Positions 1 through 64,000 of a DNA stretch of 64,000 nucleotides are shown piece after piece. Position 1 is the first letter of the stretch; each line of letters starts with the position of its first letter. The stretch is from a virus. The translations under genes were made by a program, and so were the position numbers. The stretch is taken from positions 1 to 64,000 of the IMG/VR virus record IMGVR_UViG_3300042567_000108; one strand, given 5' to 3'. The notes under the pieces were generated by a model. It saw nothing but the letters and a program-made list of their open reading frames with translations, made no database searches and was not told where the DNA came from.

Positions 1-1
1 C

Positions 2-190
2 ACAATCGTTGCAGGTTCACAGGCAATGGCAGAAGCTGTAGCTGAAGAGCCACACGTAGTTATCGGTAACGTAACTGATAAGTTGATGCGCTTCCGCCCA
101 ATGGGTTGGTACGGCGTACTTGGCTTCTCAGTATACCGCGATGAGGCTCTATACCGAATCACATCAGGTTCATCAATCGCTGCTCTCTAG
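2..190 (+). CDS. Major capsid protein, C-terminal fragment (phage Y)
   Basis: TIVAGSQAMAEAVAEEPHVVIGNVTDKLMRFRPMGWYGVLG aligns with the C-terminus of 37526-38722. Confidence 0.9.
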   Translation, partial: TIVAGSQAMAEAVAEEPHVVIGNVTDKLMRFRPMGWYGVLGFSVYRDEALYRITSGSSIAAL

Positions 191-250
191 TAGTTAATTG
201 ACTGCTGGACAGGGGAAACCCTGTCTGGTGGTGAGTCCACTAAAGGAGGA
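191..250 (+). promoter_or_regulatory. Conserved stem-loop after capsid gene (attenuator or processing element)
   Basis: CTGGACAGGG-GAAA-CCCTGTCTGG hairpin inside TAGT...ACTA, then AGGAG; same layout at 38727-38790. Confidence 0.6.
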
Positions 251-253
251 GTC

Positions 254-523
254 ATGACAGATTACATCTTCGAGACACCAACTGTCGATGAAGGCTTTGA
301 AGGAGTTCAACGACTCTTTACATTTTACAAGTTAGCACGTGGTATCAGTATTATCAGAGTCAATGGAACTTACCGTCAGGTTCGCTATCCATACGATGGT
401 GACTTAGATACTTATCAAGAAGTATATCTTGGTGGTAGCAAGTACACTGTAGATGAGACAACTCGAGAGAATCTAATTAACGGAAACGTTGGAGTTACGA
501 CAGCAAACTTTACCGCAATATAG
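254..523 (+). CDS. Conserved hypothetical protein
   Basis: SD AGGAGG; homologue 38794-39054 (L-RGIS, YLGGS-Y motifs). Confidence 0.8.
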   Translation: MTDYIFETPTVDEGFEGVQRLFTFYKLARGISIIRVNGTYRQVRYPYDGDLDTYQEVYLGGSKYTVDETTRENLINGNVGVTTANFTAI

Positions 524-530
524 GGGACAT

Positions 531-977
531 ATGGGACACGAACACGCAAGCAAAGTTCTTGAATGGGCATACAAACTAGTAGACGGAGATATGATTCCAT
601 ACTCTGCTCTTTATGGGTGTGTGTACTGTGATGCTACATCAACAGAACCTTTTCCTGATGAGAATGACATCTTTGTAGACCATACCAAGTGTGGTCCTGA
701 ATGTTTCGGGTGCAAAGCAAGAGGGCTTCAAATGAATACTGGCGATGCCAATAGTCAAAGAAATGCTCCTCGTAAAAGATTTGAAAGCGAATTAACAGCA
801 TACGCTAATGCGAAGGCACAAGGAATCCAACCTGGTGGCACTTCGATGGAGAAGATTCGTGAGGCAGAAAGAGCCTCCGAAGTATTGAATAAGCCATACA
901 ATGCTAATTCAATGCCAGATGCAAAACACGTAAATCAATCAACCGCAGCGGTAATGAAAGAGATAGGACAAGTATAA
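531..977 (+). CDS. Conserved hypothetical Cys/His (Zn-binding) protein
   Basis: CxxC and CFGCKA motifs; homologue 39054-39497; start moved to MGHEH. Confidence 0.75.
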   Translation: MGHEHASKVLEWAYKLVDGDMIPYSALYGCVYCDATSTEPFPDENDIFVDHTKCGPECFGCKARGLQMNTGDANSQRNAPRKRFESELTAYANAKAQGIQPGGTSMEKIREAERASEVLNKPYNANSMPDAKHVNQSTAAVMKEIGQV

Positions 978-1129
978 TGCCAAAAGTAGGAATGAAGGAA
1001 TTTGCATACACAGCAAAAGGAATGGCAATGGCTAAGGCTGAGGCTAAGAAAACTGGCAAGCCAATGAAGAAGGCTGCTAAGAAAGTTGCTAAGAAGATGG
1101 TTATGAAGAAGATGGGCAAGAAGAAGTAA
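977..1129 (+). CDS. Lys-rich mini-protein (50 aa)
   Basis: MPKVGMKEFAYTAKG...KKAAKKVAKKMVMKKMGKKK; TAATG coupling; not in the ORF track. Confidence 0.7.
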   Translation: MPKVGMKEFAYTAKGMAMAKAEAKKTGKPMKKAAKKVAKKMVMKKMGKKK

Positions 1130-1288
1130 ATGCCTAAGATGACACCGCAGGATGCTGCGATGCTTAAGATTTTTCAGAAGGAATACGGCACAATGGTATA
1201 TCCGTCACCAGTTCGTGCATCAACAGCGGATAGCGCACGCAGACAGAACGCAGCAAAGTTAGCCAAGAAGAAAACAAAGAAGGACTAA
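1130..1288 (+). CDS. Basic mini-protein (52 aa)
   Basis: PKMTPQDAAMLKI motif shared with 40136-40282 (PKMTPQDRAMLKI). Confidence 0.7.
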   Translation: MPKMTPQDAAMLKIFQKEYGTMVYPSPVRASTADSARRQNAAKLAKKKTKKD

Positions 1289-1289
1289 A

Positions 1290-1547
1290 ATGTCAGACCC
1301 AAGACTAAAGCGAGCAGGAGTATCAGGCTTCAACAAGCCTAAGCGTACACCAAACCACCCCAAGAAGAGCCACGTAGTTGTGGCTAAAGAAGGTAGCAAG
1401 GTTAAGACTATTCGCTTTGGTCAACAGGGTGTGACTGGCGATAGACAACCAACTAAACGCCAAGCCTCCTTTAAGGCACGTCACGCAAAGAATATTGCTA
1501 AGGGCAAGATGTCTGCTGCATACTGGGCGGATAAAGTAAAATGGTAG
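1290..1547 (+). CDS. Conserved basic phage protein
   Basis: Only about 4 aa differ from 40440-40697. Confidence 0.9.
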   Translation: MSDPRLKRAGVSGFNKPKRTPNHPKKSHVVVAKEGSKVKTIRFGQQGVTGDRQPTKRQASFKARHAKNIAKGKMSAAYWADKVKW

Positions 1548-1729
1548 CAAAGAAAAAGGCTAAGTCAAAAGTCAATGCTGCTGGCAACTATACCAAGCCT
1601 GGCATGCGTGCTTCATTGTTTAAGAAGATTAAGGCTGGCTCTAAGGGTGGAGACCCTGGAGAATGGTCTGCTCGTAAAGCACAACTACTTGCTGTTCAGT
1701 ATAAGAAGGCAGGCGGAGGCTACAAGTAA
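1541..1729 (+). CDS. DUF5872-like protein, N-terminal half
   Basis: GGDPGEWSARKAQLLA-QYKKAGGGY motif; homologue 40691-40873. Confidence 0.8.
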   Translation: MVAKKKAKSKVNAAGNYTKPGMRASLFKKIKAGSKGGDPGEWSARKAQLLAVQYKKAGGGYK

Positions 1730-1965
1730 TGGCACTTGCTAAGTCACAGCAGTCACTTAAGAAGTGGACTGCGCAGAAGTGGAAGACCTCTGATGGCAAG
1801 CCATCTAAAGGAAAGAAAAGATATTTACCAGAAGCAGCATGGGCTGCACTGAGTCCTGCAGAAAAAGCAGCAACCAATAAGGCCAAGGCTAAAGGTAATG
1901 CTAAAGGTAAGCAGTTTGTAAAACAACCAAAGTCAATAGCAAAGAAGGCTGCGAGGTTTAGATAA
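1729..1965 (+). CDS. DUF5872-like protein, C-terminal half
   Basis: SQ-SLKKWT-QKW, RYLP--AW and GKQFV motifs; homologue 40873-41109. Confidence 0.8.
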   Translation: MALAKSQQSLKKWTAQKWKTSDGKPSKGKKRYLPEAAWAALSPAEKAATNKAKAKGNAKGKQFVKQPKSIAKKAARFR

Positions 1966-2240
1966 TGGCAGTAGGAGTAGCAGGTAGCACATTTGCTGAC
2001 GAGTTAAATCGTCTTGCAAATGGTGGAACATACCCCACACCAGATAAGTACCAATCTGAGCAAGGTGCAGCAAATAACTATGCTGATACTAGTGGCTTGG
2101 GTATTATAGCAGCATTAAATATTAAAGCCGACACAAACCGTCAGCCTGATGATTACAAGATGATGAACGCCATCTGTAATGAATTAGCAGGAACTACTGG
2201 GCTATCAGCCGTTGTTGCACTAAGGAGCATAGACCTATGA
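1965..2240 (+). CDS. Hypothetical virion-associated protein
   Basis: DELNRLANGG shared with 41118-41450. Confidence 0.8.
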   Translation: MAVGVAGSTFADELNRLANGGTYPTPDKYQSEQGAANNYADTSGLGIIAALNIKADTNRQPDDYKMMNAICNELAGTTGLSAVVALRSIDL

Positions 2241-3154
2241 CAACTTTAGCACAGATGATTGATGAAGTCCTTATCAACCTTTCAGGTTATACATACCAAC
2301 AGGACCGCTCAACATATCTTAAGACTGCAGTCACCACACTAACATCACCAAGTACAGCACCTACAATCCTATCTCTAGGAGATACGAGCAACGTAGGTAA
2401 AGGTATCCTTGAGATTGATGAAGAGTTAATGTGGGTTGATTCATTTGACCGCGTATCTAATACAGCAACTGTCTCACCATATGGACGTGGGTATTTGGGA
2501 ACACCAGCAACTACACACGCTGCTGATACAAAGGTAACTATCTCACCTATCTTCCCACGCTATGTAGTTAAGAAAGCAATCAACGATACTATCCGAGCAA
2601 TGGGTGCAAGCCTGTTGTCTATCAAGCAGACCACCTTCACATTTAATGCGGCAATCAATACATATGAATTTGAGAACCTAAGCATTGAAAATATTCTTAC
2701 TATGTCATGGCAGGATACAGGTCCTTCTAAAGAGTGGATTCGTATTCGTCGTTGGGACTTTGACCCATTTGCAGATGTAGACACTTGGGGTTCAGGCTCA
2801 CAGACAGTTACTATCTACGACTGGATTACTCCAGGACGTACAGTAAAGGTTATGTATGCAACACCACCATCAACACTAGAGAACAGTTCAGATGTATTCA
2901 CGACTACTACAGGTTACGCTGAATCAGCGCGTGACATTGTAATTCTTGGTGCATCATACAGGTTATTGGCTTACCTTGACCCAGCACGCGCAGGTCAGAT
3001 TAGCCCGCAGGCGGACGAAACAGATGGCAAGCGCCCATACGGTGCAAGTGCATCAGCAACAAAGCAACTCTTTGCTCTTTACTCACAGCGTCTTAATGAG
3101 GAAGTTGCAACACTGCAAAACCAATATCCGCCACGAATTCATTATACTCGATAG
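2237..3154 (+). CDS. Putative head-tail adaptor / tail tubular protein A-like
   Basis: Position between capsid and fibre genes; homologue 41450-42343. Confidence 0.55.
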   Translation: MTTLAQMIDEVLINLSGYTYQQDRSTYLKTAVTTLTSPSTAPTILSLGDTSNVGKGILEIDEELMWVDSFDRVSNTATVSPYGRGYLGTPATTHAADTKVTISPIFPRYVVKKAINDTIRAMGASLLSIKQTTFTFNAAINTYEFENLSIENILTMSWQDTGPSKEWIRIRRWDFDPFADVDTWGSGSQTVTIYDWITPGRTVKVMYATPPSTLENSSDVFTTTTGYAESARDIVILGASYRLLAYLDPARAGQISPQADETDGKRPYGASASATKQLFALYSQRLNEEVATLQNQYPPRIHYTR

Positions 3155-3162
3155 GAATATAA

Positions 3163-4842
3163 ATGACAACACGCAATTACTCCTCTCGCTCCCAGCAAAC
3201 AACACTGACAAGCGCCGTTACCGCTGGCGCATCGTCAATGGTTGTCGTTTCAGGTACAGCGCTCTTGGGTGGTGTAACCATCCCTGCGGGAACAACCTTT
3301 ACTATCGTAGTAGACCCAGATACAGCACTCGAAGAAATTGTAGATGCCACCGCGGTATCAACCAATACCTTCACGATAACACGTGCTATTGATGGCTCAT
3401 CTGCCCAGGCTCACTCTGCTGGTGCTGTTGTTCGTCACATGGCTATCGGTCGTGACTACCGCGAAGCCAATACTCATATCGAGGCTTCTACGGGTGTACA
3501 CGGTATCTCTAACTCATCTTCTGTAGTCGGAACAATCGACACCCAAACACTAACTAATAAGACCCTTACAGCACCTACAATCACTAACCCTAGCATCTCA
3601 GGTGCTGGTGTAGATGCAAGCATTGTCTTTGAGGGTGCTACTGCAGATGCGTATGAGACTACTCTCACAGTAACAGACCCAACTCAAGATAATACAATCA
3701 CCCTACCTAATACAACTGGTACAGTAGTCATTGCTACAGCAACTCAGACATTAACAAACAAGACTTTAACAAGCCCAACTATTTCAGGTAGCCCTGTTAT
3801 CACAGGTCTATCATCTGCTGGCATGTCAACATCATCTGCTGCTCCAAAGGATTACGTAGATAGTATTCTAGGTTCCGCAACAGCAGCATCTACTAGTGCA
3901 ACATCTGCTGCAGCAAGTGCTACCGCAGCCGCTACATCGGCAACCAGTGCAGCAGCAAGTGCAACGGCATCTGCTACATCTGCTACAGCCTCAGCAACAA
4001 GCGCTACGGCAGCAGCAACTTCTGCTACAAGTGCAGCAGCCTCTGCGACAGCAGCGGCGACTAGCGCAACCAGTTCTGCAACTAGCGCTACAGCAGCAGC
4101 GACATCAGCCACATCCGCTGCAGCAAGCGCAACAGCAGCAGCAACGTCAGCAACATCTGCTGCAGCAAGCGCAGTAACTGCTGCTAACTCAGTAGCAACA
4201 ATCGCAGGCTATGCAACTTCGTCAGCCAACTCAGCAACTGCTGCTGCTACATCTGCAGCAAGTGCTGCAACATCAGCGACTAGTGCTGCTGCATCATACG
4301 ATGCCTTCGATGACCGCTATCTTGGTAGCAAAACATCTGACCCTACATTAGATAATGATGGCAATGCGTTACTGGTTGGTGCTTTATACTTTAACTCAGT
4401 AATTAATGCTATGAAAGTCTACAATGGTTCCTCTTGGGATTTAGTAGCACCTGACACATCTAACTTTATTCAGAAAACTGTAGTTAGTGCCAAGGGCTCA
4501 ATTATTGCAGCAACTTCATCTGCAACCCCAGCGGAACTAACCGTAGCGGCAACTAATGGCTACGTTCTCAGCGTAAACTCAGCAAGTGCTACAGGGCTTG
4601 AATGGGCTGCGCCCAATCCTGGAGATATTACGGGAGTTACGGCTGGAACTGGTCTTACAGGTGGAGGCACATCTGGAGCAGTAACGGTGCAACTTGACAC
4701 ATCCTCTATTTACGTGGTACCATCACAATCGGGACAGTCAGGTAAATATTTAACTACCAACGGAACAGCAGCAAGTTGGGCAGCCGTTGACATAACTTCA
4801 ATTCAAGACAACTATATCCTCGTCCTTATGGGCGCAATCTAA
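3163..4842 (+). CDS. Tail fibre protein with Ala/Ser/Thr repeat stalk
   Basis: TQTLTNKTLT repeats, SATAAA repeats, FDDRYLG motif; homologue 42352-44229. Confidence 0.8.
   Translation: MTTRNYSSRSQQTTLTSAVTAGASSMVVVSGTALLGGVTIPAGTTFTIVVDPDTALEEIVDATAVSTNTFTITRAIDGSSAQAHSAGAVVRHMAIGRDYREANTHIEASTGVHGISNSSSVVGTIDTQTLTNKTLTAPTITNPSISGAGVDASIVFEGATADAYETTLTVTDPTQDNTITLPNTTGTVVIATATQTLTNKTLTSPTISGSPVITGLSSAGMSTSSAAPKDYVDSILGSATAASTSATSAAASATAAATSATSAAASATASATSATASATSATAAATSATSAAASATAAATSATSSATSATAAATSATSAAASATAAATSATSAAASAVTAANSVATIAGYATSSANSATAAATSAASAATSATSAAASYDAFDDRYLGSKTSDPTLDNDGNALLVGALYFNSVINAMKVYNGSSWDLVAPDTSNFIQKTVVSAKGSIIAATSSATPAELTVAATNGYVLSVNSASATGLEWAAPNPGDITGVTAGTGLTGGGTSGAVTVQLDTSSIYVVPSQSGQSGKYLTTNGTAASWAAVDITSIQDNYILVLMGAI
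3880..4290 (+). repeat. Coding repeat (SATAAAT/SATSAAA heptads)
   Basis: Degenerate 21-nt periodicity in the fibre gene. Confidence 0.85.
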
Positions 4843-4888
4843 GAAAGGCGTAGTAACTAATGGCTACCGTATCAAAGACCCTGGCTCG
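4793..4888 (+). repeat. 96-bp exact direct repeat (partner 44180-44275)
   Basis: Direct comparison; spans the fibre stop, intergenic DNA and the next start. Confidence 0.9.
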
Positions 4889-5162
4889 CACAGCAGCAGC
4901 AACATCAAGCACTACTCTATACACAGTCCCATCCGCAACTACAACTGTAGTAACTGACATTGTAGTAACTAATACTGCAACATCTACTGCTAACTTTACT
5001 CTAAGTTTTAACGATGTAGTGTTTGCTCAAAATGTAACTGTAGGTGCAACTGACTCAACTATTATTCAAGTAAAGCAACCTCTTGCTGCTACTCAAACAA
5101 TCAAAGGCTTAGCCTCTGCTACAACAGTTAACTTTCACATTGGCGGAGTGGAGATTTCCTAG
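4860..5162 (+). CDS. Small tail/fibre-associated beta protein
   Basis: About 90% identical to 44247-44549. Confidence 0.8.
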   Translation: MATVSKTLARTAAATSSTTLYTVPSATTTVVTDIVVTNTATSTANFTLSFNDVVFAQNVTVGATDSTIIQVKQPLAATQTIKGLASATTVNFHIGGVEIS

Positions 5163-5785
5163 TGGCAGTCTATAAGACGTCTAACTCTGGATTACTGACA
5201 AGGGTAACGTACAGTTCTTTCCTTGCGGGAAACACAGCATACGTACCGCCATTTGAGCCTACTGGTGCCTACGATTCTATTGCTACTACTACTCTAACAA
5301 CAAGCACAGCGGATATTACATTTACTTCTATTCCAAGCACATACAAACATTTGCAAATTAGATTTTTAGCACAGTGTGATAATAGCGCAACAGCGGCAGA
5401 TAATCTTGCTTTTAGATTTAATTCCGATACTGGCGGTAACTATACTCGTCATTACATAGATGGCGCAGGTGGTGGGGGTGTTGCTACTTACGGCGCTAAT
5501 GCCAATGTTTCACAAGTATATGCAACTTGTGCTCAAACATCTCCAACTTATCCAAATGTTTTTGGTGTAGGATTTTTGGATATTTTAGACTATTCTAATA
5601 CTAGTAAAAACACAACAACTAGAGCATTTAGTGGTGTTGATTTTAATGGCAGTGGTGGCGCGGTTCAGTTTACATCAGGTTTATGGCGTAACACTGCTGC
5701 AATTACAAGCATTAATATTAGAGCGTTATCAGGTAATCTAAAACAATACTCACAATTTGCTCTATATGGAATTAAGGGAGATTAA
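5162..5785 (+). CDS. Tail-associated paralogue 1 (putative receptor-binding beta domain)
   Basis: YDSIAT...FTSIPSTY...AITSI...FALYGI; homologue 44549-45166. Confidence 0.7.
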   Translation: MAVYKTSNSGLLTRVTYSSFLAGNTAYVPPFEPTGAYDSIATTTLTTSTADITFTSIPSTYKHLQIRFLAQCDNSATAADNLAFRFNSDTGGNYTRHYIDGAGGGGVATYGANANVSQVYATCAQTSPTYPNVFGVGFLDILDYSNTSKNTTTRAFSGVDFNGSGGAVQFTSGLWRNTAAITSINIRALSGNLKQYSQFALYGIKGD

Positions 5786-5787
5786 TT

Positions 5788-6312
5788 ATGGCAGCAGGAA
5801 ATACATATGTTGCAATAGCAACAGAAACCCTTGCATCAGCACAATCATCTGTTACATTTTCATCAATTCCATCTACATATACTGATTTAATATTGGTATG
5901 TTCAATGTTTCCAACCACGACAGCAACAGGTAACTATGGACAAATTCAAGTAGGTAACGGTTCTGTTGACACTGGTTCTAATTACTCTGACACTGCAATG
6001 TATGGTAATACAACAACAACAAATAGTTATAGAGATACTTCTCAAAGCCTTTGGTGGTTAAATGTTGCAGGTGCAAACTTCCAAAGTGCAACATCTCCTT
6101 TAATTTCAATTATTAATATAATGAATTACTCTAACGCTACAACAAATAAAACTGCTTTAATCCGCAGCGGCAATCCTGCTGGTTCTGTAACTTATGCAGA
6201 TGTTGCCTTATGGCGTAGTAATTCTGCAATTAACACAGTCAAAGTAATGATTAGCGCATCAACTTTTGCTGCAGGTTCAACTTTCTCACTATACGGAATT
6301 GCGAGTGCTTAA
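5788..6312 (+). CDS. Tail-associated paralogue 2
   Basis: FSSIPSTYTDL...FSLYGI; homologue 45169-45660. Confidence 0.7.
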   Translation: MAAGNTYVAIATETLASAQSSVTFSSIPSTYTDLILVCSMFPTTTATGNYGQIQVGNGSVDTGSNYSDTAMYGNTTTTNSYRDTSQSLWWLNVAGANFQSATSPLISIINIMNYSNATTNKTALIRSGNPAGSVTYADVALWRSNSAINTVKVMISASTFAAGSTFSLYGIASA

Positions 6313-6314
6313 AT

Positions 6315-7589
6315 ATGCCTGATAACTATATCCTTTTAGAAAAAATTACCATTGGTGCATCAAGCCCATCTTCTGTAGTATTTTCTAACATACCTCAAAC
6401 TGGTTACACAGATTTAGTACTTAAGGGTTCTGTCAAAACAACACAGGCTGCAACTTATGGTTTACTTTCAATACGACCTAATGGAAGTAGTACTAATTTA
6501 ACTGGCATAAGAGTTTATGGTGGAGACGGTAATGCTTACGCTGACGATACGGCTACTCTTGCTTTTATAAGTGGTACATCTACTGAAACAAATACATTTG
6601 GAAGTTTTGAAACATACATTACAAATTACGCAGGCTCAAATTTCAAAACATTTACATCGGAAAGTACTGGCGAAAGAAACCAAACAAATGATACATATAT
6701 GGGATTTAGTAGCATTTTATGGTCAAATACTGCAGCAATTACTTCATTAGAAATTATGCCTGGTGCTGTAGGATTTATTGAAGGTTCAACCTTTTACCTA
6801 TACGGTGTAGCAAAGTTAGGTACAACTCCTGCCATTGCACCTAAAGCATTAGGTGGAAGCATTATTGAAACTGATGGTACTTACTGGTATCACGCATTCC
6901 TGTCATCAGGAACATTTACTCCTGTTGAAACTTTATCTTGTGATGTGCTTGTAATAGCAGGTGGCGGTGGAGGTGGTTACTACAACGGTGGTGGTGGTGG
7001 TGCTGGAGGATTACAAGCATTTACTAGTCAATCTATATCAAGCAGTAAAACAATTACTATTGGTGCAGGTGCGCCCCAACCAGCGGGTTACGTTGATTCA
7101 TCAAACGGCAACGATTCAACATTTCAAGGTTTAACCGCCTCTGTTGGCGGCGGCGCTGGTTCAAGTTATTACACAAAGCTTTCACAGGTTGGCGGTTCAG
7201 GCGGCGGCGGCGGAATGGATTACAACACAAGCGGTTCGGCAGGAACAGCAGGTCAAGGTAATGCAGGAGCAAATGGAAACGGCACAACGGTTGCTGGTGG
7301 CGGTGGCGGTGCGGGTGGTGCGGGTCAAGCGGGTGCATCAGGTGGCGCGGGCGGTGTCGGTTCATCGACTTACTCTTCTTGGGGGTCAGTAACAGGCACA
7401 GGTCAAAATGTGTCAGGAACTTATTACTATGCAGGTGGTGGTGGTTGGTTAACAGGTGGCTCAGGTGGTGGTGGTGCAAATGCTTCTAGCGGAGTGGCTA
7501 ACACTGGCGGCGGTGGCGGTTGCGGTAAAGGCGTTACAAACGGCACAGGCGGAGGTTCAGGTATTGTGATTGTGAGGTATACAGTATGA
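6315..7589 (+). CDS. Tail-associated paralogue 3 with glycine-rich domain
   Basis: FSNIPQTGYTDL domain plus GGGGG-rich C-terminus ending GSGIVIVRY. Confidence 0.75.
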   Translation: MPDNYILLEKITIGASSPSSVVFSNIPQTGYTDLVLKGSVKTTQAATYGLLSIRPNGSSTNLTGIRVYGGDGNAYADDTATLAFISGTSTETNTFGSFETYITNYAGSNFKTFTSESTGERNQTNDTYMGFSSILWSNTAAITSLEIMPGAVGFIEGSTFYLYGVAKLGTTPAIAPKALGGSIIETDGTYWYHAFLSSGTFTPVETLSCDVLVIAGGGGGGYYNGGGGGAGGLQAFTSQSISSSKTITIGAGAPQPAGYVDSSNGNDSTFQGLTASVGGGAGSSYYTKLSQVGGSGGGGGMDYNTSGSAGTAGQGNAGANGNGTTVAGGGGGAGGAGQAGASGGAGGVGSSTYSSWGSVTGTGQNVSGTYYYAGGGGWLTGGSGGGGANASSGVANTGGGGGCGKGVTNGTGGGSGIVIVRYTV

Positions 7590-7689
7590 GTCATTGGGCA
7601 GAAGTAGATAACAACAACGTAGTACTACGTGTTCTAGTAGGACCTAACTATGGAGATGAAGGCGAAGCCTTCTTTAACGCACTTGGCGG
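7536..7689 (+). repeat. 154-bp exact direct repeat (partner 46884-47037); likely X/Y junction
   Basis: Base-by-base identity at offset 39,348. Confidence 0.9.
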
Positions 7690-8106: not shown

Positions 8107-8132
8107 TTTAACTTTCAACTAAAGGAGATACG

Positions 8133-10133: not shown

Positions 10134-10137
10134 CACT

Positions 10138-10908: not shown

Positions 10909-10925
10909 TCCCCTAGGAGGATACA

Positions 10926-52952: not shown

Positions 52953-53033
52953 AACGTTGATGAGAGAACGCAGCTACCGACGCACACCACAGAAGTGGCT
53001 GCGTTCTTTCTACACAGAAGGGAATGAATCAGG

Positions 53034-53816: not shown

Positions 53817-53824
53817 GGAGAATA

Positions 53825-55505: not shown

Positions 55506-55511
55506 AGAGAT

Positions 55512-56974: not shown

Positions 56975-57027
56975 AGAATGTTACCACTATGATTGCGAAG
57001 GCACGGAATGTACTAGTACTGCGCTTT

Positions 57028-57246
57028 CTACTCTGCATCAGGGTCAAACTCCCTGTCGAAGTCAACCTCTGAGTCTATCATCTCTTGTATCATACCTTCC
57101 AAGTCCAACTCTGCTGGGTCAACATGTAACGCTTCCCCATTTACATTGTAGAACTCTTCAATCTCTTTCATGCTAGCAAACTGTAGCTCATCAGACTGTA
57201 AGTCACAGGCTGAACAACCACCAGCTTCGCATACTTCACATACCAT
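57028..57246 (-). CDS. Acidic Cys-containing hypothetical protein
   Basis: SD GGAGG; CEVC---GCSAC. Confidence 0.7.
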   Translation of the reverse strand: MVCEVCEAGGCSACDLQSDELQFASMKEIEEFYNVNGEALHVDPAELDLEGMIQEMIDSEVDFDREFDPDAE

Positions 57247-57249
57247 TTG

Positions 57250-57426
57250 CTATCCTCCTGTTGAATAGAATCCACTGCCATTAAACTTGACAGGTGGTGC
57301 ACTGTACACCCTTACCATTGGCTCATTACAACTGTCGCAGTAAGGTATGATTTCCTGTTCGGTCATACCCCTACTGATTGTGATAGTGCTTGAGTCAACC
57401 TCACACTTGTATTCATAGCTAGCCAT
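57250..57426 (-). CDS. FmdB-like zinc-ribbon protein
   Basis: YEYKC...F-GSGFYSTGG. Confidence 0.85.
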   Translation of the reverse strand: MASYEYKCEVDSSTITISRGMTEQEIIPYCDSCNEPMVRVYSAPPVKFNGSGFYSTGG

Positions 57427-57601
57427 TTGCTTCTTCCTCTCCAGCCCATGGGTCTCTGTACCTGTACTGTCTTTCCATGTCACGATTGATTGCATCTAGC
57501 AGAGCACTAGGTATTCTTAGAGTTGGTGGCTCTATCATTAATGTTCGATACTCTTCATCGCGCTCGCGCTTCTTAACTATATGATGTAGAAACTCAGTCA
57601 T
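57419..57601 (-). CDS. Hypothetical protein (MTEFLH...)
   Basis: Coupled; N-terminus shared with 58975-59301. Confidence 0.65.
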   Translation of the reverse strand: MTEFLHHIVKKRERDEEYRTLMIEPPTLRIPSALLDAINRDMERQYRYRDPWAGEEEANG

Positions 57602-57818
57602 CTTCTATCTCCGTTCCTTCTGGTGTTGGTGCTGTTGCTAGTGTACCACACTCAGCGCATTCCATGTCAAGGAAGTACATACCAATCTCTCCGTCATCAT
57701 CAAAGATAGTCTTGAGATTCCAAATCTCACAACCACATGGGCACACTAGTGTAGGCTCACCGCGTATGTCCATAGCCTGTGTATAATCAGGCTTCATTTC
57801 CGTTACATGCTTAGCCAT
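57594..57818 (-). CDS. Small Zn-finger protein
   Basis: Homologue 11620-11802. Confidence 0.75.
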   Translation of the reverse strand: MAKHVTEMKPDYTQAMDIRGEPTLVCPCGCEIWNLKTIFDDDGEIGMYFLDMECAECGTLATAPTPEGTEIEDD

Positions 57819-57940
57819 AATCTATCCTCTCTATAAATCATCATAGCAAATACCACATACCCACCATGAAAGCAGTTCCAATAACTCACTCTCGGGTGTT
57901 GGTTCTTCACACCGAGTGCAGTTAATTGTTTCTTCCTCCA

Positions 57941-58333
57941 TTAGTAGTTACCATTCCTTTTCCAATGAGTCCATGCATCGCATGGTGTGCCGTATCTGTA
58001 GAAAATGTAATCAAGCCCACGCTCTATCTGTCGTGGTGCTGGTGTGTCAGGGTCAAGCCCCAACAGTTGTGGAATCCCACCCGCATGCTTCCCCATTACA
58101 CGGATAGGATTAAAGGCATCAGGATTCCAAGCGGATTCCTTACCCCACAATCTGTTGAGACATGACACCTGATTATCTTTCCACTCGTTGAGTTTATCTC
58201 TAGCGTATGCCTTGCTATCTGCCTTACTCCAAATGACTTGCACGCCTTTGTCTGTTGTGTCCGTGGCTGTCTTTGAGTTGTCGGTTAATAGCAGAGCTAC
58301 TACTACGAGCAGTAAGAATGTTAGTGATTTCAT
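57941..58333 (-). CDS. Lytic transglycosylase (SLT-like)
   Basis: Signal peptide, LWGKESAW and GIPQ. Confidence 0.8.
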   Translation of the reverse strand: MKSLTFLLLVVVALLLTDNSKTATDTTDKGVQVIWSKADSKAYARDKLNEWKDNQVSCLNRLWGKESAWNPDAFNPIRVMGKHAGGIPQLLGLDPDTPAPRQIERGLDYIFYRYGTPCDAWTHWKRNGNY

Positions 58334-58659
58334 TTGGTAGTTGCCCTTACTCTGTGTGCGAAGTTAATCATAGACCTGCGATTGTTCCATGTTAATGGGA
58401 CAGATGCAAGTAGGACACGCTCACCAGGTAGAGTGCCTCCCCAAATACCATTGTCTAAGTTCTCTCGTTTCATACCCTCAGTAAAGCATTCAGCCTTGGC
58501 TGGGCATGCGTTACAGATAGATAGCGCGGTCTTTACGTTAGCGATACGTTGCTTGTACTCTGGACTATTTTCATTGACGCGATTGTTCTCAGCGTCGCTG
58601 TCGATAGACTCGCTGAACCATAGGTCAGGGTTCTCATGACCTGTGCATAGACCTTGCAT
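58330..58659 (-). CDS. whiB: WhiB-family transcription factor
   Basis: C...C--CP---EC and GIWGG. Confidence 0.85.
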   Translation of the reverse strand: MQGLCTGHENPDLWFSESIDSDAENNRVNENSPEYKQRIANVKTALSICNACPAKAECFTEGMKRENLDNGIWGGTLPGERVLLASVPLTWNNRRSMINFAHRVRATTK

Positions 58660-58669
58660 ACTCTATCTC

Positions 58670-58777
58670 CTATCTCTCTAGTGCTATCTCTGTCATCTCG
58701 TCGAATTCTTCGTCGAGTTCTTCTTCATCATCATGCCCTAATGCTATGTCGTCGTCAAGTGGTGGCTCGTAACTCAT
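58670..58777 (-). CDS. Acidic micro-protein (MSYEPPLDD...)
   Basis: 35 aa, SD GGGGAG. Confidence 0.65.
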   Translation of the reverse strand: MSYEPPLDDDIALGHDDEEELDEEFDEMTEIALER

Positions 58778-58786
58778 GTTCTCCCC

Positions 58787-58978
58787 TTAGTGTAGTACTG
58801 GTCGGTAGATAGGTATGACAGTAGCATTGACCAGCTTGCTACCGAACGTTGTTGCTTCTTGGATACTAGCGAACACTCCGTATAGTATGCGGTCGCTATC
58901 TACTGTGGTTAGCGTTACAAATCCAACAGGTGGCTGTTCGCTACTGTATTCAAATCCTTGTACTGTTACTGTGCTCAT
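58787..58978 (-). CDS. Hypothetical protein
   Basis: SD GAGAGG. Confidence 0.65.
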   Translation of the reverse strand: MSTVTVQGFEYSSEQPPVGFVTLTTVDSDRILYGVFASIQEATTFGSKLVNATVIPIYRPVLH

Positions 58979-59301
58979 TGTCTATCCTCTCTTAGTTGTT
59001 GTGTGTGTTCTGACCTACAATCCATGCAGTAATACTTGTATTGTACTGTATTACTTAGACTAATGTCAAATACCCACCTATGTTCGCAACCAATAGTGCT
59101 AAAGATAGCACGCACTAGTCGCCATGACGGGGTATCCCACCAATCTTGAACATTTCGTATAACTTCAGGCAGATTATAGATAAGGTTACTATAACATGCT
59201 GGTATGTATACGCCACGATAGAGTGGAGCGTACTGTGCAGGGAATACTGGTGATGATTGACGCTCACGTTGAGCAACAACCTCATGTAGAAACTCTGTCA
59301 T
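58975..59301 (-). CDS. Hypothetical protein with C-H...C--C motif
   Basis: SD GGAG. Confidence 0.65.
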   Translation of the reverse strand: MTEFLHEVVAQRERQSSPVFPAQYAPLYRGVYIPACYSNLIYNLPEVIRNVQDWWDTPSWRLVRAIFSTIGCEHRWVFDISLSNTVQYKYYCMDCRSEHTQQLREDRQ

Positions 59302-59326
59302 AGTATCTCCAATCTATAAAGTTAAG

Positions 59327-59354
59327 TGAGCAGTTTTATGTCGTGCTCAGGACA
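59327..59354 (-). ncRNA. Compact H-type pseudoknot
   Basis: TGTC-CTGAGCAC-GACA-TAAAAC-TGCTCA. Confidence 0.5.
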
Positions 59355-59367
59355 GGTGGCGAAGTTA

Positions 59368-59631
59368 TTACGCTTCGAACACCACTTCTGTGTAGCCTGA
59401 TAGTCTCTCATGTGTAGTGATGAGACCCTTGCTACCAGTAAGGTGCTTGTATGTGCCGTTGCCTAGTGATACCCACATAGACTTAGGCTTGAAGCGTGTC
59501 TGTGAAGGTAGTGCTTTCACGATAGTGCCACGCTTTGGGTAGTCACTTGATGTATCAACTGCGTTGTATGAAATCTCGTCTGCGATAATGCGTAATTCCT
59601 CAGCAAGATTTAGGATTGTGTCGTTAGACAT
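59368..59631 (-). CDS. Hypothetical protein
   Basis: SD GAGAGG. Confidence 0.7.
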   Translation of the reverse strand: MSNDTILNLAEELRIIADEISYNAVDTSSDYPKRGTIVKALPSQTRFKPKSMWVSLGNGTYKHLTGSKGLITTHERLSGYTEVVFEA

Positions 59632-59646
59632 TTGTTACCTCTCTAG

Positions 59647-60450
59647 TTAGTATAGGAAATCGGCAAGGCTTCGTTTGCTTTGCCAATCTTTGTTCGGTGT
59701 GTAACATAGGCAGTCATCTATCATGATTGAACAATCAAAGCATGACTTGCACATGTTACAGTAGTACGGGTTGTCTGTCAAATCCGTGGCAGACTCACAG
59801 TAGGGGCAGACTTCTAAGTCTACATCTACTGTGTAGTCCCACAGTTTGTCGGTATAATCTATGGCTTTGACAGGCTCTAGGTAGGTAGTACGCTTATGAC
59901 TTTGGTTACTCCACCAGATACCTTCATTGTCCCATGAACCAGCCGACTCGTTGAGTAGATACATAGGGTGTTGTGCTGCTGGGTCACATGTAATGATAGC
60001 AATCTTGCTACCCTTAGCCCAAGTCTCAGCCATAATCCATACGTTATCGTCATCAAGTGCGGACACGCCACCAATTCTAGGTAGTGTATCCTCAGCGAAG
60101 ACACGCGTATCACTACGCTTGTCGGACTTGCCGATACTTATGTCAAGCACACCATTGTGTGCTAAGTAAGTACGCTCATCATCACCAACCTTGAAGGGGT
60201 GGCAATTCTGTTCGTTCTTAACACCATGTGTGGCGTATCGTGCATGCCACATGGCGTAGCCGTCAGGGAATTGCTTGCGTAATTCCAAGAAGCGTGCAAT
60301 AGATTTTTTAGCAGACATGCTACGCTCTGAGATAATCCTATCACCAGCATGAATAGCAAAGCCAAATCCGTGTGGATTACTACACGCACCAGCGTGTAAG
60401 TCTGCTTTGTTTGGTGTGGAGTTTGGCTCGCACACTACAAGTAAGCACAT
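59647..60450 (-). CDS. Class II (Ntn) glutamine amidotransferase with Cys-rich tail
   Basis: N-terminal MC, NPHG-G, H-RYAT, N-HPF, HNG and SDT motifs. Confidence 0.9.
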   Translation of the reverse strand: MCLLVVCEPNSTPNKADLHAGACSNPHGFGFAIHAGDRIISERSMSAKKSIARFLELRKQFPDGYAMWHARYATHGVKNEQNCHPFKVGDDERTYLAHNGVLDISIGKSDKRSDTRVFAEDTLPRIGGVSALDDDNVWIMAETWAKGSKIAIITCDPAAQHPMYLLNESAGSWDNEGIWWSNQSHKRTTYLEPVKAIDYTDKLWDYTVDVDLEVCPYCESATDLTDNPYYCNMCKSCFDCSIMIDDCLCYTPNKDWQSKRSLADFLY

Positions 60451-60462
60451 AGTATCATCTCC

Positions 60463-61758
60463 CTAAGCGTTAGCAGTTATCTTGTTGTTGATGTCTACTG
60501 ATTGTATCTTGTCCAACCTAGAGTATAGGTCGGGGTAGAGTCCATTGTTGGACACTACATAGTCAGCAAACCACTCCCAAGATAGTGCGCCAAGTTTGAC
60601 GTCATCTAGTCGTAGTTCCCTAGTGTATTCTACCATGGCTTGTGCTAAGTCTAGGGCACTTAACACGCCACTTGTTTTCATTGTGCCCCTGAAGAAGCGC
60701 AATTCTATGGTGTTCTTGTTCTGCGTATTGACGGCTGAGTATCTCTCTGTGCTGTGTCGGTCGGGGTTGCCGACCTTGTGCTTGATAGAGAATACGGGGC
60801 GGTCATACTCGTCAAAGGTGTACACATCATTGAACCTTGCGAAGCGTGACTTACGACCCGCAAACTTCATCATGTGTGGTGCGTTGTGGTACACAAAGGC
60901 TATGAACCTATGCAAGTGTGCGCCACTACTAAATCCGTCACGACTTAGGTGTATGTGCAGACCACATGTGTCTGTATCCCACGACCTAGCGTCATAGTCC
61001 TTGCGTAGTGTCTCTATGGTATTCCATAGCGTTGCACTATTGTCGCGGTATTCTTGGTGCGTATGTGGGTGAGTAACTATCTCGAACCCACTAGTAATAC
61101 TTCCGTCATGTTTGAGGTAGGCAGTACCTTGCAAGGCACTAGAAGCAAAGTACGCACCCTCATCTACGCGTGGCATCTCTGTCTCTAGCTCAAAGCCGAG
61201 ATACATCTTGCGCTTACTGACACCCTTAAAGATAGGTGCTGGCTTGCATGAGTAGTCGTGGATAGTACCGCTTGCGCGGTAGCCACGGCAACACTTACCC
61301 TCTACACTATCGCTCTCACGACAATCGCAAGGGTAATCATTGTGGTATGACTCATCACAGTCATCACAGTAGTAGCAGTTATCAGAGAAGCAACTCTCAC
61401 AGTATGGGTTATCCCCAACGTAGGTTGTACTCTCTGATGACGACTCGCAACAATTCTCACAGTAGTAACTGTAATTCTCGTAGCAATAGTCGCACCAATC
61501 CTCGTTATCTACTGTGTGGCTATTCTCACTAGGCATGCCGTCCTCACAGCGGTCACAGTGACTAGCGCAACTTGTACACCAATACTCACCATTGACAATG
61601 ATGTTGTCCTCAGTGTCGCGTATGTCGTTGCACTCATGGCAACTGAACACGCAATCGGTGCAGTAAGTGTAGTCGTTGAGGACTAACTCATCACCCGACT
61701 CTATCTTGTTAGAGCATGTGTGGCATGCTAAAGTCTCGTTATCCTCCATGTATCTCAC
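60463..61758 (-). CDS. Putative amidoligase (COOH-NH2 ligase type 2) with poly-CxxC N-terminus
   Basis: GFELE, HDGSI, FEIVTHP, CGLHIH, RYSAVN and TIELR-FRGT motifs. Confidence 0.85.
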   Translation of the reverse strand: MRYMEDNETLACHTCSNKIESGDELVLNDYTYCTDCVFSCHECNDIRDTEDNIIVNGEYWCTSCASHCDRCEDGMPSENSHTVDNEDWCDYCYENYSYYCENCCESSSESTTYVGDNPYCESCFSDNCYYCDDCDESYHNDYPCDCRESDSVEGKCCRGYRASGTIHDYSCKPAPIFKGVSKRKMYLGFELETEMPRVDEGAYFASSALQGTAYLKHDGSITSGFEIVTHPHTHQEYRDNSATLWNTIETLRKDYDARSWDTDTCGLHIHLSRDGFSSGAHLHRFIAFVYHNAPHMMKFAGRKSRFARFNDVYTFDEYDRPVFSIKHKVGNPDRHSTERYSAVNTQNKNTIELRFFRGTMKTSGVLSALDLAQAMVEYTRELRLDDVKLGALSWEWFADYVVSNNGLYPDLYSRLDKIQSVDINNKITANA

Positions 61759-61793
61759 CCCCTCTCGCTGTATAGTCGTAGTATAGCATGGCG

Positions 61794-61982
61794 TTAAGCC
61801 TTTGTCAATTCTCTCGCGTTGTCTATAATTGCGTCCGCAATCTTTGAGCGCAAGCCTTGTACCTCTAGCACTAGGCTAGGGAAATCGTTGCGCTTATGGG
61901 TATCCTCTTGCAATCGTAGTGCAAGTCGGATAACCTCGACCTCACGTTGTGTAAGGTCTAACAATAGGTTATCGTGCGTCAT
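61794..61982 (-). CDS. Small helical hypothetical protein
   Basis: SD GAGGGG. Confidence 0.65.
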   Translation of the reverse strand: MTHDNLLLDLTQREVEVIRLALRLQEDTHKRNDFPSLVLEVQGLRSKIADAIIDNARELTKA

Positions 61983-62109
61983 AGTACCCCTCGTAACGGC
62001 GTAGTCTACGTTCTAACACATAGACTCTACGAAAGGCTATCAATAGTACCATGTTCACCGATAGCAAGGCTATCATTAGGGCGAACATGTCACTTGTAGA
62101 TAGTGTCAT
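61969..62109 (-). CDS. Small membrane protein (46 aa)
   Basis: SD GAGAGG; TM helix plus basic tail; not in the ORF track. Confidence 0.6.
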   Translation of the reverse strand: MTLSTSDMFALMIALLSVNMVLLIAFRRVYVLERRLRRYEGYYDAR

Positions 62110-62253
62110 GTCTAACCTCTCTCACAAGGACACCATGAGCCTAGATTAAGTTTGCCACACTTAGGACAAGTCCAAAACCTATCCTTGCGTGGGTCGCTTT
62201 CACTAGCCACTTGATACCCCTATCTTATCATGGGCTTGACGCTTTGTCAAGTC

Positions 62254-62300
62254 GTGCCACGCTAGGTCGTGAACCTATGTAGCCTATCGCTAGGCGTGGC
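62254..62300 (-). ncRNA. Anticodon-less tRNA-like mini-element, copy 1
   Basis: GCCACG/CGTGGC outer stem, TAGC/GCTA arm, TAGG-TTCACGA-CCTA arm. Confidence 0.5.
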
Positions 62301-62306
62301 GTAATT

Positions 62307-62612
62307 CTAGTCGTTCGCGTCTATGTGGACGCTAGGTAGCGTGGCGCGAAAGGTCTGCTCGCGTTCGGCTAGTGCAAGTTCACGCGCTAGGCGTTCTTGT
62401 GTGGCTTCATCAAGGGTAGGTAGTACGCGCTCAACCTTAGGGCGGTTGGTCGTGACGGCATGGCGTGTGCGTGTGCGCTTAATGCGTACGGCTTTACCAT
62501 GTTGCGTGTCCGTAAGTCGTGCCCCGATAGTGCCCAAGCGTCTATCAGACGCATGAACCTTGCGTGGCGTGACTACGATACTACCTAAACCCCCGTAAGG
62601 GTTGTAGGTCAA
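62307..62612 (-). CDS. Arg-rich first early protein
   Basis: TTG start after GAGAGG (track start 62630). Confidence 0.6.
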   Translation of the reverse strand: MTYNPYGGLGSIVVTPRKVHASDRRLGTIGARLTDTQHGKAVRIKRTRTRHAVTTNRPKVERVLPTLDEATQERLARELALAEREQTFRATLPSVHIDAND

Positions 62613-62657
62613 GTGTCTATCCTCTCTCATGCTTAGCCTAGCAACATGCTAGGTCTA

Positions 62658-62702
62658 GTGTCGCGCTAGGTTGTGAGCCTAGTATAGCCTACGCTACGCG
62701 AC
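62658..62702 (-). ncRNA. Anticodon-less tRNA-like mini-element, copy 2
   Basis: GTCGCG/CGCGAC outer stem, TAGC/GCTA arm, CTAGG-CTCACAA-CCTAG arm. Confidence 0.5.
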
Positions 62703-62995
62703 TTGTCAAGTCGGACACAATAGAGTCGTGTTACCCAACCCCGAGGGTCTGCTACTAGGTAACGAGTCAAGCCTATCATGTCTCTATTGACTTGTCAAGT
62801 GATGACGCTCTAACTCTCGTTAGGTCTTTCACTTGTTGGAGATAACTTTACACTATCCCCTAGCCTTTGTCAAGTCTCACGACTTGTCGGGCGTGTCGTA
62901 CTTTGTGACCCTTTGGGGTTATTCCCCTATCCGATTACAAGACAAAGACTACACGCTCACCATGCCAAAGTCAAGCCCGACACACGCTCAACCTT

Positions 62996-63011
62996 TGTGA
63001 TTTAGGTCACA
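62996..63011. promoter_or_regulatory. CRP/GlxR-type box
   Basis: TGTGA-TTTAGG-TCACA, perfect consensus. Confidence 0.65.
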
Positions 63012-63074
63012 CCCCATAATCGCATACACGCATAGACGCTAAATAGAAAGGTATAACCCAAGACCCCTAGAAGT

Positions 63075-63151
63075 CTGAGAGTTTCCTGAGAGTTTCCTGA
63101 GAGGATAACTACCTGAGAGTTTCCTGAGAAATTATTGTGTGCCCCCTGAGA
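63075..63151 (+). repeat. Six CTGAGA-core repeats
   Basis: Starts at 63075, 63086, 63097, 63113, 63124 and 63146. Confidence 0.9.
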
Positions 63152-63267
63152 AATTACTGTGTCGGGTAGATAGTCGGTAAATAGATAAATACCTAAATAG
63201 ATAACACGCTAAAGAGATTTATCGACAATTCATAGATACCCTAACCCTATACTAGAGACTTAGACAT

Positions 63268-63441
63268 TATGACCCCCGATTGTTTAATTCGAGTGCACGG
63301 GTCGGATATAGTATCCCATAAAAAATTTCTGTTATATAATACTATAGCCCCCCTATATATAGCCCTGACCAGGGCTTTTAAAAATATATTGGTTTCAGTT
63401 GTTCGGTTTTACGATTTGAACAGGTTATCTTATATGTATAG
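63268..63441 (+). promoter_or_regulatory. Conserved pre-terminase element
   Basis: Collinear motifs shared with 23752-23920. Confidence 0.55.
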
Positions 63442-63571
63442 AAATACATATACGGAGTCGCTCCGTTTAAGACTCCGCGACTCTTATATATTATATAATA
63501 TATTATATATATGGGGAAGTTCTGCCGTTAATCGGCCAGCGTTAAATGACTGTAAATGATGGGGACAACTG

Positions 63572-64000
63572 ATGGGTAGAAAACCTGGGATTCAGAATAT
63601 CCCTAAGCGCGAGGCGCAAGAGAAGGCCTTGCAGCAACTGAGTCAGGGTAGCACGATTACCCAGGCTATGGCCTCCGTGGGCCGCTCAGATGTGGCATTC
63701 CGCCAATGGTCAGCAACTGACCCTGAGTTCAAAGCACGTGCCGAGGCTGCTCGCCTCGAGGGTAAAGGCATCAAGACTGACCTAAAGGAGCTGGGAGATA
63801 TTTCCTTTCCAGACTTCTCTGAGCAGTTTCTAGACACTAAGCTCTTTGACCATCACCTTGACTGGGTAGACCTAATTGAGGGCCGTGAGCCTCGCTGGTT
63901 AGACCCAGCCATGACCTACGAGCCAGGAGCGGCTAACCGTGTTCTCATTAACGTACCGCCTGAGCATGCTAAAAGTACGGTCATTACGACTAACTACGTC
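63572..64000 (+). CDS. terL: Terminase large subunit, 5' fragment (phage Y)
   Basis: MGRKPG...LINVPPEHAKSTVIT; homologue of 24024-25934; runs off the window. Confidence 0.9.
   Translation, partial: MGRKPGIQNIPKREAQEKALQQLSQGSTITQAMASVGRSDVAFRQWSATDPEFKARAEAARLEGKGIKTDLKELGDISFPDFSEQFLDTKLFDHHLDWVDLIEGREPRWLDPAMTYEPGAANRVLINVPPEHAKSTVITTNYV

What the first reader, a model, noticed from the sequence alone, without database searches (positions are those of the whole stretch)
1..64000. Two divergent sister phage genomes fused, apparently as a figure-of-eight through a 154-bp exact repeat
Seen: capsid, tail, lysis, replication, WhiB and terminase genes all occur twice, about 39 kb apart, as divergent homologues. 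The only long exact matches I found are 7536-7689 = 46884-47037 (154 bp, offset 39,348) and 4793-4888 = 44180-44275 (96 bp). Cutting at the 154-bp repeat releases one complete 39,348-bp genome (X). Inference: this is most likely an assembly chimera, because the repeat exceeds common assembler k-mer sizes and matches short-read length. A real recombination cointegrate of co-infecting phages is the more exciting alternative.
Basis: partly seen in the sequence, partly recalled or inferred. Interest (0 to 1): 0.7.

Follow-up and report, generated by a model that had tools for sequence, protein, structure and literature searches.

The report
Two lake phages mis-joined by assembly
The 79-kb "double phage" is most likely two separate ~39-kb freshwater actinophage genomes that the assembler strung together through a 154-base stretch both carry, so the fusion is an artefact, while the tail-fibre cassette the two phages share is real.

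Summary
The window is the first 64 kb of a 79,356-bp IMG/VR record with two colinear, divergent gene sets about 39.3 kb apart.

- At k=127 the record has only 29 repeated 127-mers. The 154-bp repeat gives 28 and the record's own first 127 nt gives one, which points to a k=127 de Bruijn path.
- In the probable source run, contig k-mer depth falls from about 139x (1-7749) to about 49.6x (8207-20000) at the repeat. The abundant haplotype reads Y-type alleles on both sides of it.
- In two other lake runs, 1-7.3 kb is covered at 5-9x while 8-20 kb is nearly absent.
- Independent IMG/VR contigs carry the other joins. A DTR-closed 38,543-bp genome is colinear with X (7690-46883 closed on itself). A 20-kb contig links the record's end, its start and 47.5-50.9 kb (Y).
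- All 118 related contigs are 42 kb or shorter.

What is real is a ~3.4-kb tail-fibre cassette shared by X and Y but absent from their nearest relatives, a sign of recent exchange. A real cointegrate is not excluded (about 5%). This scan has found the same artefact class on other phage records.

The parts
1..7535 (+). Segment alpha: part of phage Y, from the capsid gene's C-terminal end through small basic proteins, a 305-aa protein, the tail fibre and the left part of the fibre cassette up to the Gly-rich 424-aa gene.
   Evidence: Depth is about 139x in run X1, and it is present without beta in runs X15 and X16. An independent contig, G012, links it to the gamma end and the gamma start.
1..127 (.). 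First 127 nt of the record, identical to 78821-78947 (outside the window). After this point the record's end follows a 93.7% variant of 128-536.
   Evidence: The first mismatch is at 128. This is the only repeated 127-mer apart from those of the 154-bp repeat.
7536..7689 (.). Copy 1 of the 154-bp exact repeat (end of the Gly-rich gene and start of the 95-aa gene). The assembled path switches here from Y (alpha) to X (beta).
   Evidence: At 7690 the window has C (X type), while the 154x contig of run X1 has T (Y type, equal to 47038).
7690..46883 (.). Segment beta. With one repeat copy it forms the complete 39,348-bp phage X: early genes on the minus strand at 11.2-23.6 kb, terminase to capsid at 24.0-38.7 kb, tail module at 38.8-46.9 kb.
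   Evidence: Depth is 49.6x in X1 over 8207-20000. It has no AGCT site. It is colinear in circular order with the DTR-closed 38,543-bp G013 and with G011.
46884..47037 (.). Copy 2 of the 154-bp exact repeat. The path switches back here from X to Y.
47038..64000 (.). Segment gamma: the rest of phage Y, running on to 78820 outside the window. With alpha and one repeat copy, Y is 39,472 bp.
   Evidence: G012 and L061-L063 link 47470-50888 with alpha-type sequence. The gene order matches the 39-kb relatives OX376640, OX376641 and G001.
4738..8106 (+). Tail-fibre cassette in the unit-1 position (fibre C-terminus, 100-aa gene, two paralogues, Gly-rich 424-aa gene, 95-aa and 77-aa genes). It is 82-99% identical to 44125-47454.
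   Evidence: Four-fold synonymous-site identity is 0.78-0.91 here against 0.13-0.52 elsewhere. The nearest relatives of X and of Y carry other cassettes.
44125..47454 (+). The same cassette in the unit-2 position.
4793..4888 (.). 96-bp exact repeat (equal to 44180-44275) at the left border of the cassette. It is shorter than 127, so it is not a crossing in a k=127 graph.

Best explanation
The record is a mis-assembly of two separate, related lytic phages from one lake metagenome. Both are WhiB-encoding and probably infect freshwater Actinobacteria.

Phage X is 7690-46883 plus one repeat copy, 39,348 bp. Phage Y is 47038-78820 plus 1-7535 plus one repeat copy, 39,472 bp. Each assembles as a circle. 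The two circles touch in a k=127 de Bruijn graph at one place only, the 154-bp identical stretch inside a tail-fibre cassette that both carry.

The assembler came in along Y, left the repeat along X, went once round X, re-entered the repeat, left along Y, and went round Y. It then passed its own starting 127-mer and ran 409 bp into a strain-variant branch before stopping.

Shown here: the repeat, the k=127 signature, the depth step, and the alternative joins in independent contigs. Inferred: the assembler, its k value, and the order of the walk.
For: 1. Graph signature. Only 29 127-mers recur in the 79,356 bp. The 154-bp repeat gives 28 and the record's first 127 nt (equal to 78821-78947) gives one. 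The first mismatch of the end overlap is at position 128. The 34 mismatches over 536 bp include no indels and fall mostly at third codon positions, which means strain variation, not read error.

2. Depth in run X1, flagged as a possible source. Exact contigs have k-mer depth 119-154x over 97-7749 and 49.1-49.6x over 8207-20000.

3. Alleles around the repeat. The 382-nt X1 contig over 7368-7749 (154x) agrees with the window at the three sites left of the repeat where the two copies differ (7489, 7508, 7535). It reads T at 7690, the base of copy 2 at 47038. So the abundant alleles are alpha on the left and gamma on the right.

4. Separability. Runs X15 and X16, from other studies, cover most of 1-7.3 kb at 5-9x with exact contigs, while 8-20 kb is at 0-2.5x.

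5. Independent assemblies.
- G013 (38,543 bp, 123-bp DTR, CheckV 100%, capsid protein 96% identical to X's) is colinear at 81-92% with 8120 to 43896 in circular order, joining beta-end to beta-start.
- G011 (94-97%) links 36368-42800 with 8104-11028.
- G012 links 76425-79356, then 2-4758, then 47470-50888.

6. Genome size. 118 related IMG/VR contigs are at most 41,997 bp. Four DTR-closed ones are 38.5-42.0 kb with one capsid gene each. GenBank relatives are 38,889 and 39,112 bp.

7. Similarity to relatives. The 39-kb relatives are closer to gamma and alpha than to beta in most homologous pairs, which groups alpha with gamma.
Against: - No raw reads were available. The runs are kept as k=31 contigs, which cannot phase across 154 bp. 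The 154x contig therefore shows the majority alleles, not a physically linked molecule.
- Only the first repeat copy and 20 kb could be laid. The depths of 20-79 kb, including gamma and beta-end, are unknown.
- A mixture of free Y with X-Y cointegrates would give the same depth step.
- The record's end runs into a 93.7% variant, not into 128-536 itself. At least three variants are therefore present, and closure of Y onto alpha is inferred from G012, not read from this sample.
- AGCT and GGCC avoidance does not change at the repeat, so it gives no independent support for this breakpoint.
Confidence: 0.88

Rival explanations
1. A real X-Y cointegrate (heterodimer or hetero-concatemer), formed in co-infected cells by homologous recombination inside the shared cassette and sampled from the cellular fraction.
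For: X and Y coexist in the same run. They share a tract with near-identical synonymous sites, which shows that the two lineages do exchange DNA here. A single crossover at the repeat would give exactly this sequence.
Against: The depths of the two arms differ 2.8-fold in the probable source run, and their ratio changes between runs. Every related genome is 42 kb or shorter, so a 79-kb molecule could not be the packaged form (the capsid limit is inference). The k=127 signature at the record's start explains the record without any such molecule.
Confidence: 0.05
2. The assembled joins reflect real monomeric recombinant phages: hybrids that swapped arms at the cassette and are present as minor strains beside X and Y. 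The assembler then threaded these into one path.
For: The population is microdiverse. The end overlap is a 93.7% variant, and run X13 holds many variant contigs. The cassette is plainly exchangeable between lineages.
Against: No contig with such a hybrid backbone was found among 118 relatives. Even so, the record as a whole would remain a chimera of two genome-length units.
Confidence: 0.05
3. A genuine ~79-kb phage genome that arose by whole-genome duplication, or two tandem prophages in a host chromosome.
For: Both gene sets are intact. IMG/VR reports the record as 100% complete.
Against: There is a depth step at the repeat, and alpha occurs without beta in other runs. The record has no integrase, no resolvase, no tRNA and no host flank. 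Synonymous sites are saturated outside the cassette, so the two sets are old lineages, each with its own closer single-copy relatives.
Confidence: 0.02

Closest known systems
Inter-genome chimeric contigs in short-read de Bruijn metagenome and virome assemblies. Roux et al. 2017, PMC5610896: chimeras usually under 5% of contigs of 10 kb or more, and more with metaSPAdes than with MEGAHIT. The COBRA paper, PMC10914622: breaks and joins at inter-genome shared regions; COBRA cannot detect chimeras made by the assembler.
   Same: Two co-occurring related viruses; an identical stretch longer than the assembler's k at the switch; a depth discontinuity; a contig start defined by a k-length vertex.
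   Different: Both genomes are traversed completely and in register. The product therefore looks like a tidy tandem dimer with near-circular closure, not like an obvious patchwork.
Concatenated-genome contigs flagged by CheckV (PMC8116208: 290 IMG/VR contigs more than twice the expected length, the same genome repeated 2.0-6.8 times, found by k-mer frequency).
   Same: An IMG/VR record about twice the expected genome length, judged an assembly artefact.
   Different: Here the two copies are different phages. The mean 20-mer frequency is 1.011, so the k-mer-frequency filter cannot see it. The record is listed as 100% complete.
Tail-fibre and host-recognition cassette mosaicism among tailed phages
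   Same: A ~3.4-kb fibre cassette with sharp borders at gene ends is shared by two otherwise diverged phages, and is replaced by unrelated cassettes in their nearest relatives.
   Different: This concerns the shared cassette, not the fusion. It is ordinary in kind. Only the pairing of these two uncultured lake phages is new.
WhiB-encoding freshwater actinophages (PMC10914622; PMC10202952).
   Same: Each phage has one WhiB gene; the source is lake water; the nearest cultured terminase relatives are Streptomyces phages (42% aa).
   Different: No isolate or named genus is close. The best GenBank relatives are unannotated metagenomic genomes with 63% terminase identity.

Membership tests
Repeat-mediated inter-genome assembly chimera | Two full gene sets, each the size of a normal genome of the group | tested here: met
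   X is 39,348 bp and Y is 39,472 bp. Relatives are 38.5-42.0 kb, four of them DTR-closed, with one capsid gene each.
Repeat-mediated inter-genome assembly chimera | An exact shared stretch at least as long as the assembler's k-mer at the switch point | tested here: met
   The 154-bp exact repeat is the only inter-unit repeat of 127 or more. k=127 is inferred from the 127-nt exact start vertex, not from assembly metadata.
Repeat-mediated inter-genome assembly chimera | Coverage discontinuity at the switch point | tested here: met
   About 139x against 49.6x across copy 1 in run X1, and alpha without beta in X15 and X16.
Repeat-mediated inter-genome assembly chimera | Independent assemblies show the alternative (parental) joins | tested here: met
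   G013 and G011 join beta-end to beta-start. G012, L061 and L063 join alpha to gamma. None shows alpha-to-beta or beta-to-gamma backbones. These are relatives at 81-98% identity with other cassettes, not the same strains.
Repeat-mediated inter-genome assembly chimera | Read pairs or long reads contradict the assembled joins | not testable with these tools
Real phage cointegrate or hetero-concatemer | Both halves at equal depth in every sample that holds it | tested here: not met
   The alpha:beta ratio is 2.8:1 in X1 and far higher in X16 and X15. A minority of cointegrates beside free Y is not excluded.
Tandem prophages | Integrase or recombinase, att sites, host flanks | tested here: not met
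   No PF00589 or PF00239 match in the 79 kb and no tRNA. The record's ends overlap each other and do not run into host DNA.
WhiB-encoding actinophage | WhiB-family gene with a four-Cys motif, and actinophage-like core genes | tested here: met
   11200-11517(-) and 58330-58659(-) match PHROG WhiB families at E 3e-18 and 2e-10. The best cultured terminase hits are Streptomyces phages at 42%. The host itself was not tested.

The most novel reading that the evidence does not exclude
The joins are real. X and Y recombine at the shared fibre cassette during co-infection of one host strain, and the record captures an intracellular X-Y cointegrate, or hybrid progeny. That would be direct evidence of ongoing arm-swapping between two phages that are only about 65-70% identical elsewhere.
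Probability: 0.06. Interest if true: 0.5.

Novelty: not a real feature. Interest (0 to 1): 0.15.

Why it matters
There are two practical points and one biological point.

First, this heterologous "double genome" sits in IMG/VR as a linear record rated 100% complete. Because its two halves are different phages, its k-mer frequency is 1.01, so the published filter for concatenated genomes cannot flag it. Anyone using the record for genome-size, gene-content, clustering or host-range work would count two species as one. It should be split at 7536-7689 and 46884-47037, and its last 536 nt should be treated as a strain variant.

Second, the first 127 nt being one of only two places with a repeated 127-mer gives a cheap, sequence-only signature. 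It could be used to screen for similar figure-of-eight chimeras.

The biology that survives is modest but real. Two co-occurring lake actinophages with saturated synonymous divergence share a ~3.4-kb tail-fibre cassette at 80-90% synonymous identity, and their closest relatives lack it. This suggests recent exchange and probably a shared host strain.

Tried and rejected
- Relatives of the 424-aa cassette protein in viral contigs reached only 52% identity or less, so they say nothing about the joins.
- An exact 32-nt core of the repeat had 0 hits in viral contigs. It had 3 hits in metagenome contigs, which proved to be distant relatives (70-89%) sharing only the conserved 95-aa gene.
AGCT is 0-1 over 128-50249 and 45 over 50250-78820. 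The boundaries lie at about 50.25 kb and at the end of the capsid gene, not at the repeat. The two zones (50 kb and 29 kb) are not genome-sized. I read this as a mosaic boundary inside Y.
- Tandem prophages were rejected: no integrase, resolvase, tRNA or host flank.
- Whole-genome duplication was rejected on depth and on the single-copy relatives.
- Lysis genes could not be confirmed. Pfam and PHROGs gave no lysin or holin for any candidate tested.
- One call failed on a too-short protein and one on too many words.
- Parts of 8-20 kb without cover in X15, X16 and X13 are low-depth contig data. I use them only together with the exact, continuous cover of 1-7 kb in the same runs.
Full report
**What the window is.** The window is bases 1-64000 of a 79,356-bp IMG/VR virus record classed as linear, with a CheckV completeness of 100. 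It has no N. GC content is 37-49% in 2-kb windows.

**The observation.** The next longest are 81, 76, 59, 50 and 48 bp, most of them at the same 39,348 offset.

A self-comparison of the whole record shows two colinear units about 39.3 kb apart.

An ORF-by-ORF comparison gives these paired genes, with amino-acid identity between the copies:

| Gene | Identity |
|---|---|
| Large terminase | 60% |
| Portal | 74% |
| Major capsid protein | 70% |
| Tail fibre | 45-60% |
| DnaB-like helicase | 56% |
| Toprim primase | 48% |
| PD-(D/E)XK nuclease | Pfam domain in one ORF per unit; no BLASTP pairing |
| Glycosyltransferase | 57% |
| WhiB | 32% |

The early and replication genes are inverted between the units: minus strand at 11.2-23.6 kb, plus strand at 51.7-57.0 kb. 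I could not confirm any lysis gene.

**Sequence-only evidence on how the record was built.**
- Only 29 of the record's 127-mers occur twice. The 154-bp repeat accounts for 28 (154-127+1). The last one is the record's own first 127 bases, identical to 78821-78947.
- The first mismatch between the start and the end copy is at position 128.
- A contig that begins with a k-long vertex, which the path later revisits to take the other branch, is what a k=127 de Bruijn assembler produces. CheckV's authors note that terminal repeats at assembler k lengths arise this way (PMC8116208).
- At that k, the two genomes touch only at the 154-bp repeat.
- The 34 differences in the end overlap are mostly at third codon positions. 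The end therefore runs into a real strain variant, not into sequencing error.

**Depth and presence in public runs.** Twenty-four lake or freshwater runs hold part of 3000-12900. I laid four of them on 1-20000.
- In X1, flagged as a possible source, exact contigs have k-mer depth 119-154x over 97-7749 and 49.1-49.6x over 8207-20000.
- The 382-nt contig over 7368-7749 (154x) matches the window at the three sites left of the repeat where the two copies differ. It reads T at 7690, where the window has C and copy 2 has T at 47038. The abundant alleles are therefore alpha on the left and gamma on the right, while the record switches from the abundant to the rarer haplotype across the repeat.
- In X15 and X16, which belong to other studies, most of 1-7.3 kb is covered by exact contigs at 5-9x, while 8-20 kb is at 0-2.5x.
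- These are k=31 contigs. They show alleles, depth and presence, but not physical phase.

**Independent assemblies.** Searches with the proteins just right of each repeat copy returned 118 related IMG/VR contigs, none longer than 41,997 bp. Four that IMG/VR classes as having direct terminal repeats are 38.5-42.0 kb and hold one capsid gene each. GenBank's nearest genomes are 38,889 and 39,112 bp. Three contigs bear directly on the joins.
- G013 (38,543 bp, exact 123-bp terminal repeat, capsid protein 96% identical to X's) is colinear at 81-92% with the window from 8120 round to 43896. It joins the X tail module to the X 666-aa gene across a shorter, unrelated cassette. It also has X's restriction-site profile: AGCT 0, GGCC 1.
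- G011 (94-97%) links 36368-42800 with 8104-11028.
- G012 links 76425-79356, then 2-4758, then 47470-50888 at 86-94%.

So the X-X and Y-Y backbones exist elsewhere, and the X-Y backbones of this record were not seen. The 39-kb relatives are also closer to gamma and alpha than to beta for most gene pairs.

**Verdict on the fusion.** The two halves differ 2.8-fold in depth and vary independently between samples. Each matches single-copy relatives of normal size. The record carries the mark of a k=127 path whose only inter-genome crossing is the repeat. I put an assembly chimera at about 0.88.

A real cointegrate, or hybrid strains that misled the assembler, cannot be excluded without read pairs or long reads, because a single crossover at the repeat gives the same sequence. 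Together they get about 0.10. Tandem prophages or a duplicated genome are contradicted: no integrase, resolvase, tRNA or host flank, and synonymous divergence is saturated outside the cassette.

**What is real.** The repeat lies in a ~3.4-kb cassette, 4738-8106 and 44125-47454, running from the fibre C-terminus to the 77-aa gene.
- The cassette is 82-99% identical between X and Y.
- Four-fold synonymous-site identity is 0.78-0.91 in the 100-aa, Gly-rich 424-aa and 95-aa genes, against 0.13-0.52 in the other gene pairs tested, terminase, portal and capsid among them. This is recent exchange, not only purifying selection.
- The nearest relatives of X (G011, G013) and of Y (G012, L061) lose similarity at the cassette borders and carry other sequences there.

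This is ordinary fibre-cassette mosaicism. It suggests that X and Y share a host strain, which is an inference.

**Known context.** Chimeric contigs between co-existing viruses are a documented minority of virome assemblies (PMC5610896). COBRA's authors describe breaks at inter-genome shared regions and note that such tools cannot detect assembler-made chimeras (PMC10914622). CheckV's concatemer screen relies on k-mer frequency (PMC8116208). Here that frequency is 1.011, so this kind of heterologous dimer passes the screen. Earlier follow-ups in this scan reached the same verdict for several other phage records joined at shared fibre sequences.

Noticed in passing
window 1-64000 and the record to 79356: GATC and CCGG are completely absent from all 79 kb, against about 233 and 78 expected from a second-order model. 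They are also absent from relatives OX376640, OX376641, G011, G012 and G013. G001 lacks GATC but has 47 CCGG sites. OX376640 and OX376641 also lack every CATG.
   Followed up: partly
window 128-50249 versus 50250-64000 (and on to 78820): AGCT occurs 0-1 times and GGCC 3 times over 128-50249. Over 50250-78820 they occur 45 and 30 times. The switch is not at the 154-bp repeat. It falls at the end of the 738-aa gene and near the end of the Y capsid gene, so Y's tail module looks imported from a lineage that avoids AGCT and GGCC. CATG is also more depleted in both tail modules than in either core.
   Followed up: partly
window 11200-23639 (-) versus 51704-56974 (+): The replication module (helicase, primase, nuclease) is inverted between X and Y. 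G013 keeps the X orientation, and OX376640, OX376641 and G001 keep the Y orientation, so this is a lineage feature and not an assembly error. The glycosyltransferase has also moved: 11789-12538(-) in X, 47471-48193(+) next to the cassette in Y.
   Followed up: partly
window 59647-61758 (-): Y alone carries a class-II glutamine amidotransferase-like gene and an amidoligase-like gene side by side (Pfam E 6e-08 and 1e-06). Homologues are present in G001. The function in a phage is unknown.
   Followed up: no
window 28873-33981 (+): A 1702-aa virion-module protein has no Pfam or PHROG match. Its counterpart in Y (1537 aa, 69003-73616 of the record) shows no BLASTP similarity to it. The region between portal and capsid is the most divergent part of the two phages.
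   Followed up: no
window 1290-1547 (+) and 10926-11111 (+): Two tiny genes (85 aa and 61 aa) are 92% and 97% identical in protein to OX376640, whose capsid and terminase are only 63-80% identical. These are unusually conserved mini-proteins.
   Followed up: no
record 78821-79356 (outside the window) versus window 1-536: A third variant (Y') of the capsid end and the next gene differs at 34 of 536 sites, mostly third codon positions. Run X13 also carries many variant contigs of alpha, so the Y population is microdiverse.
   Followed up: partly
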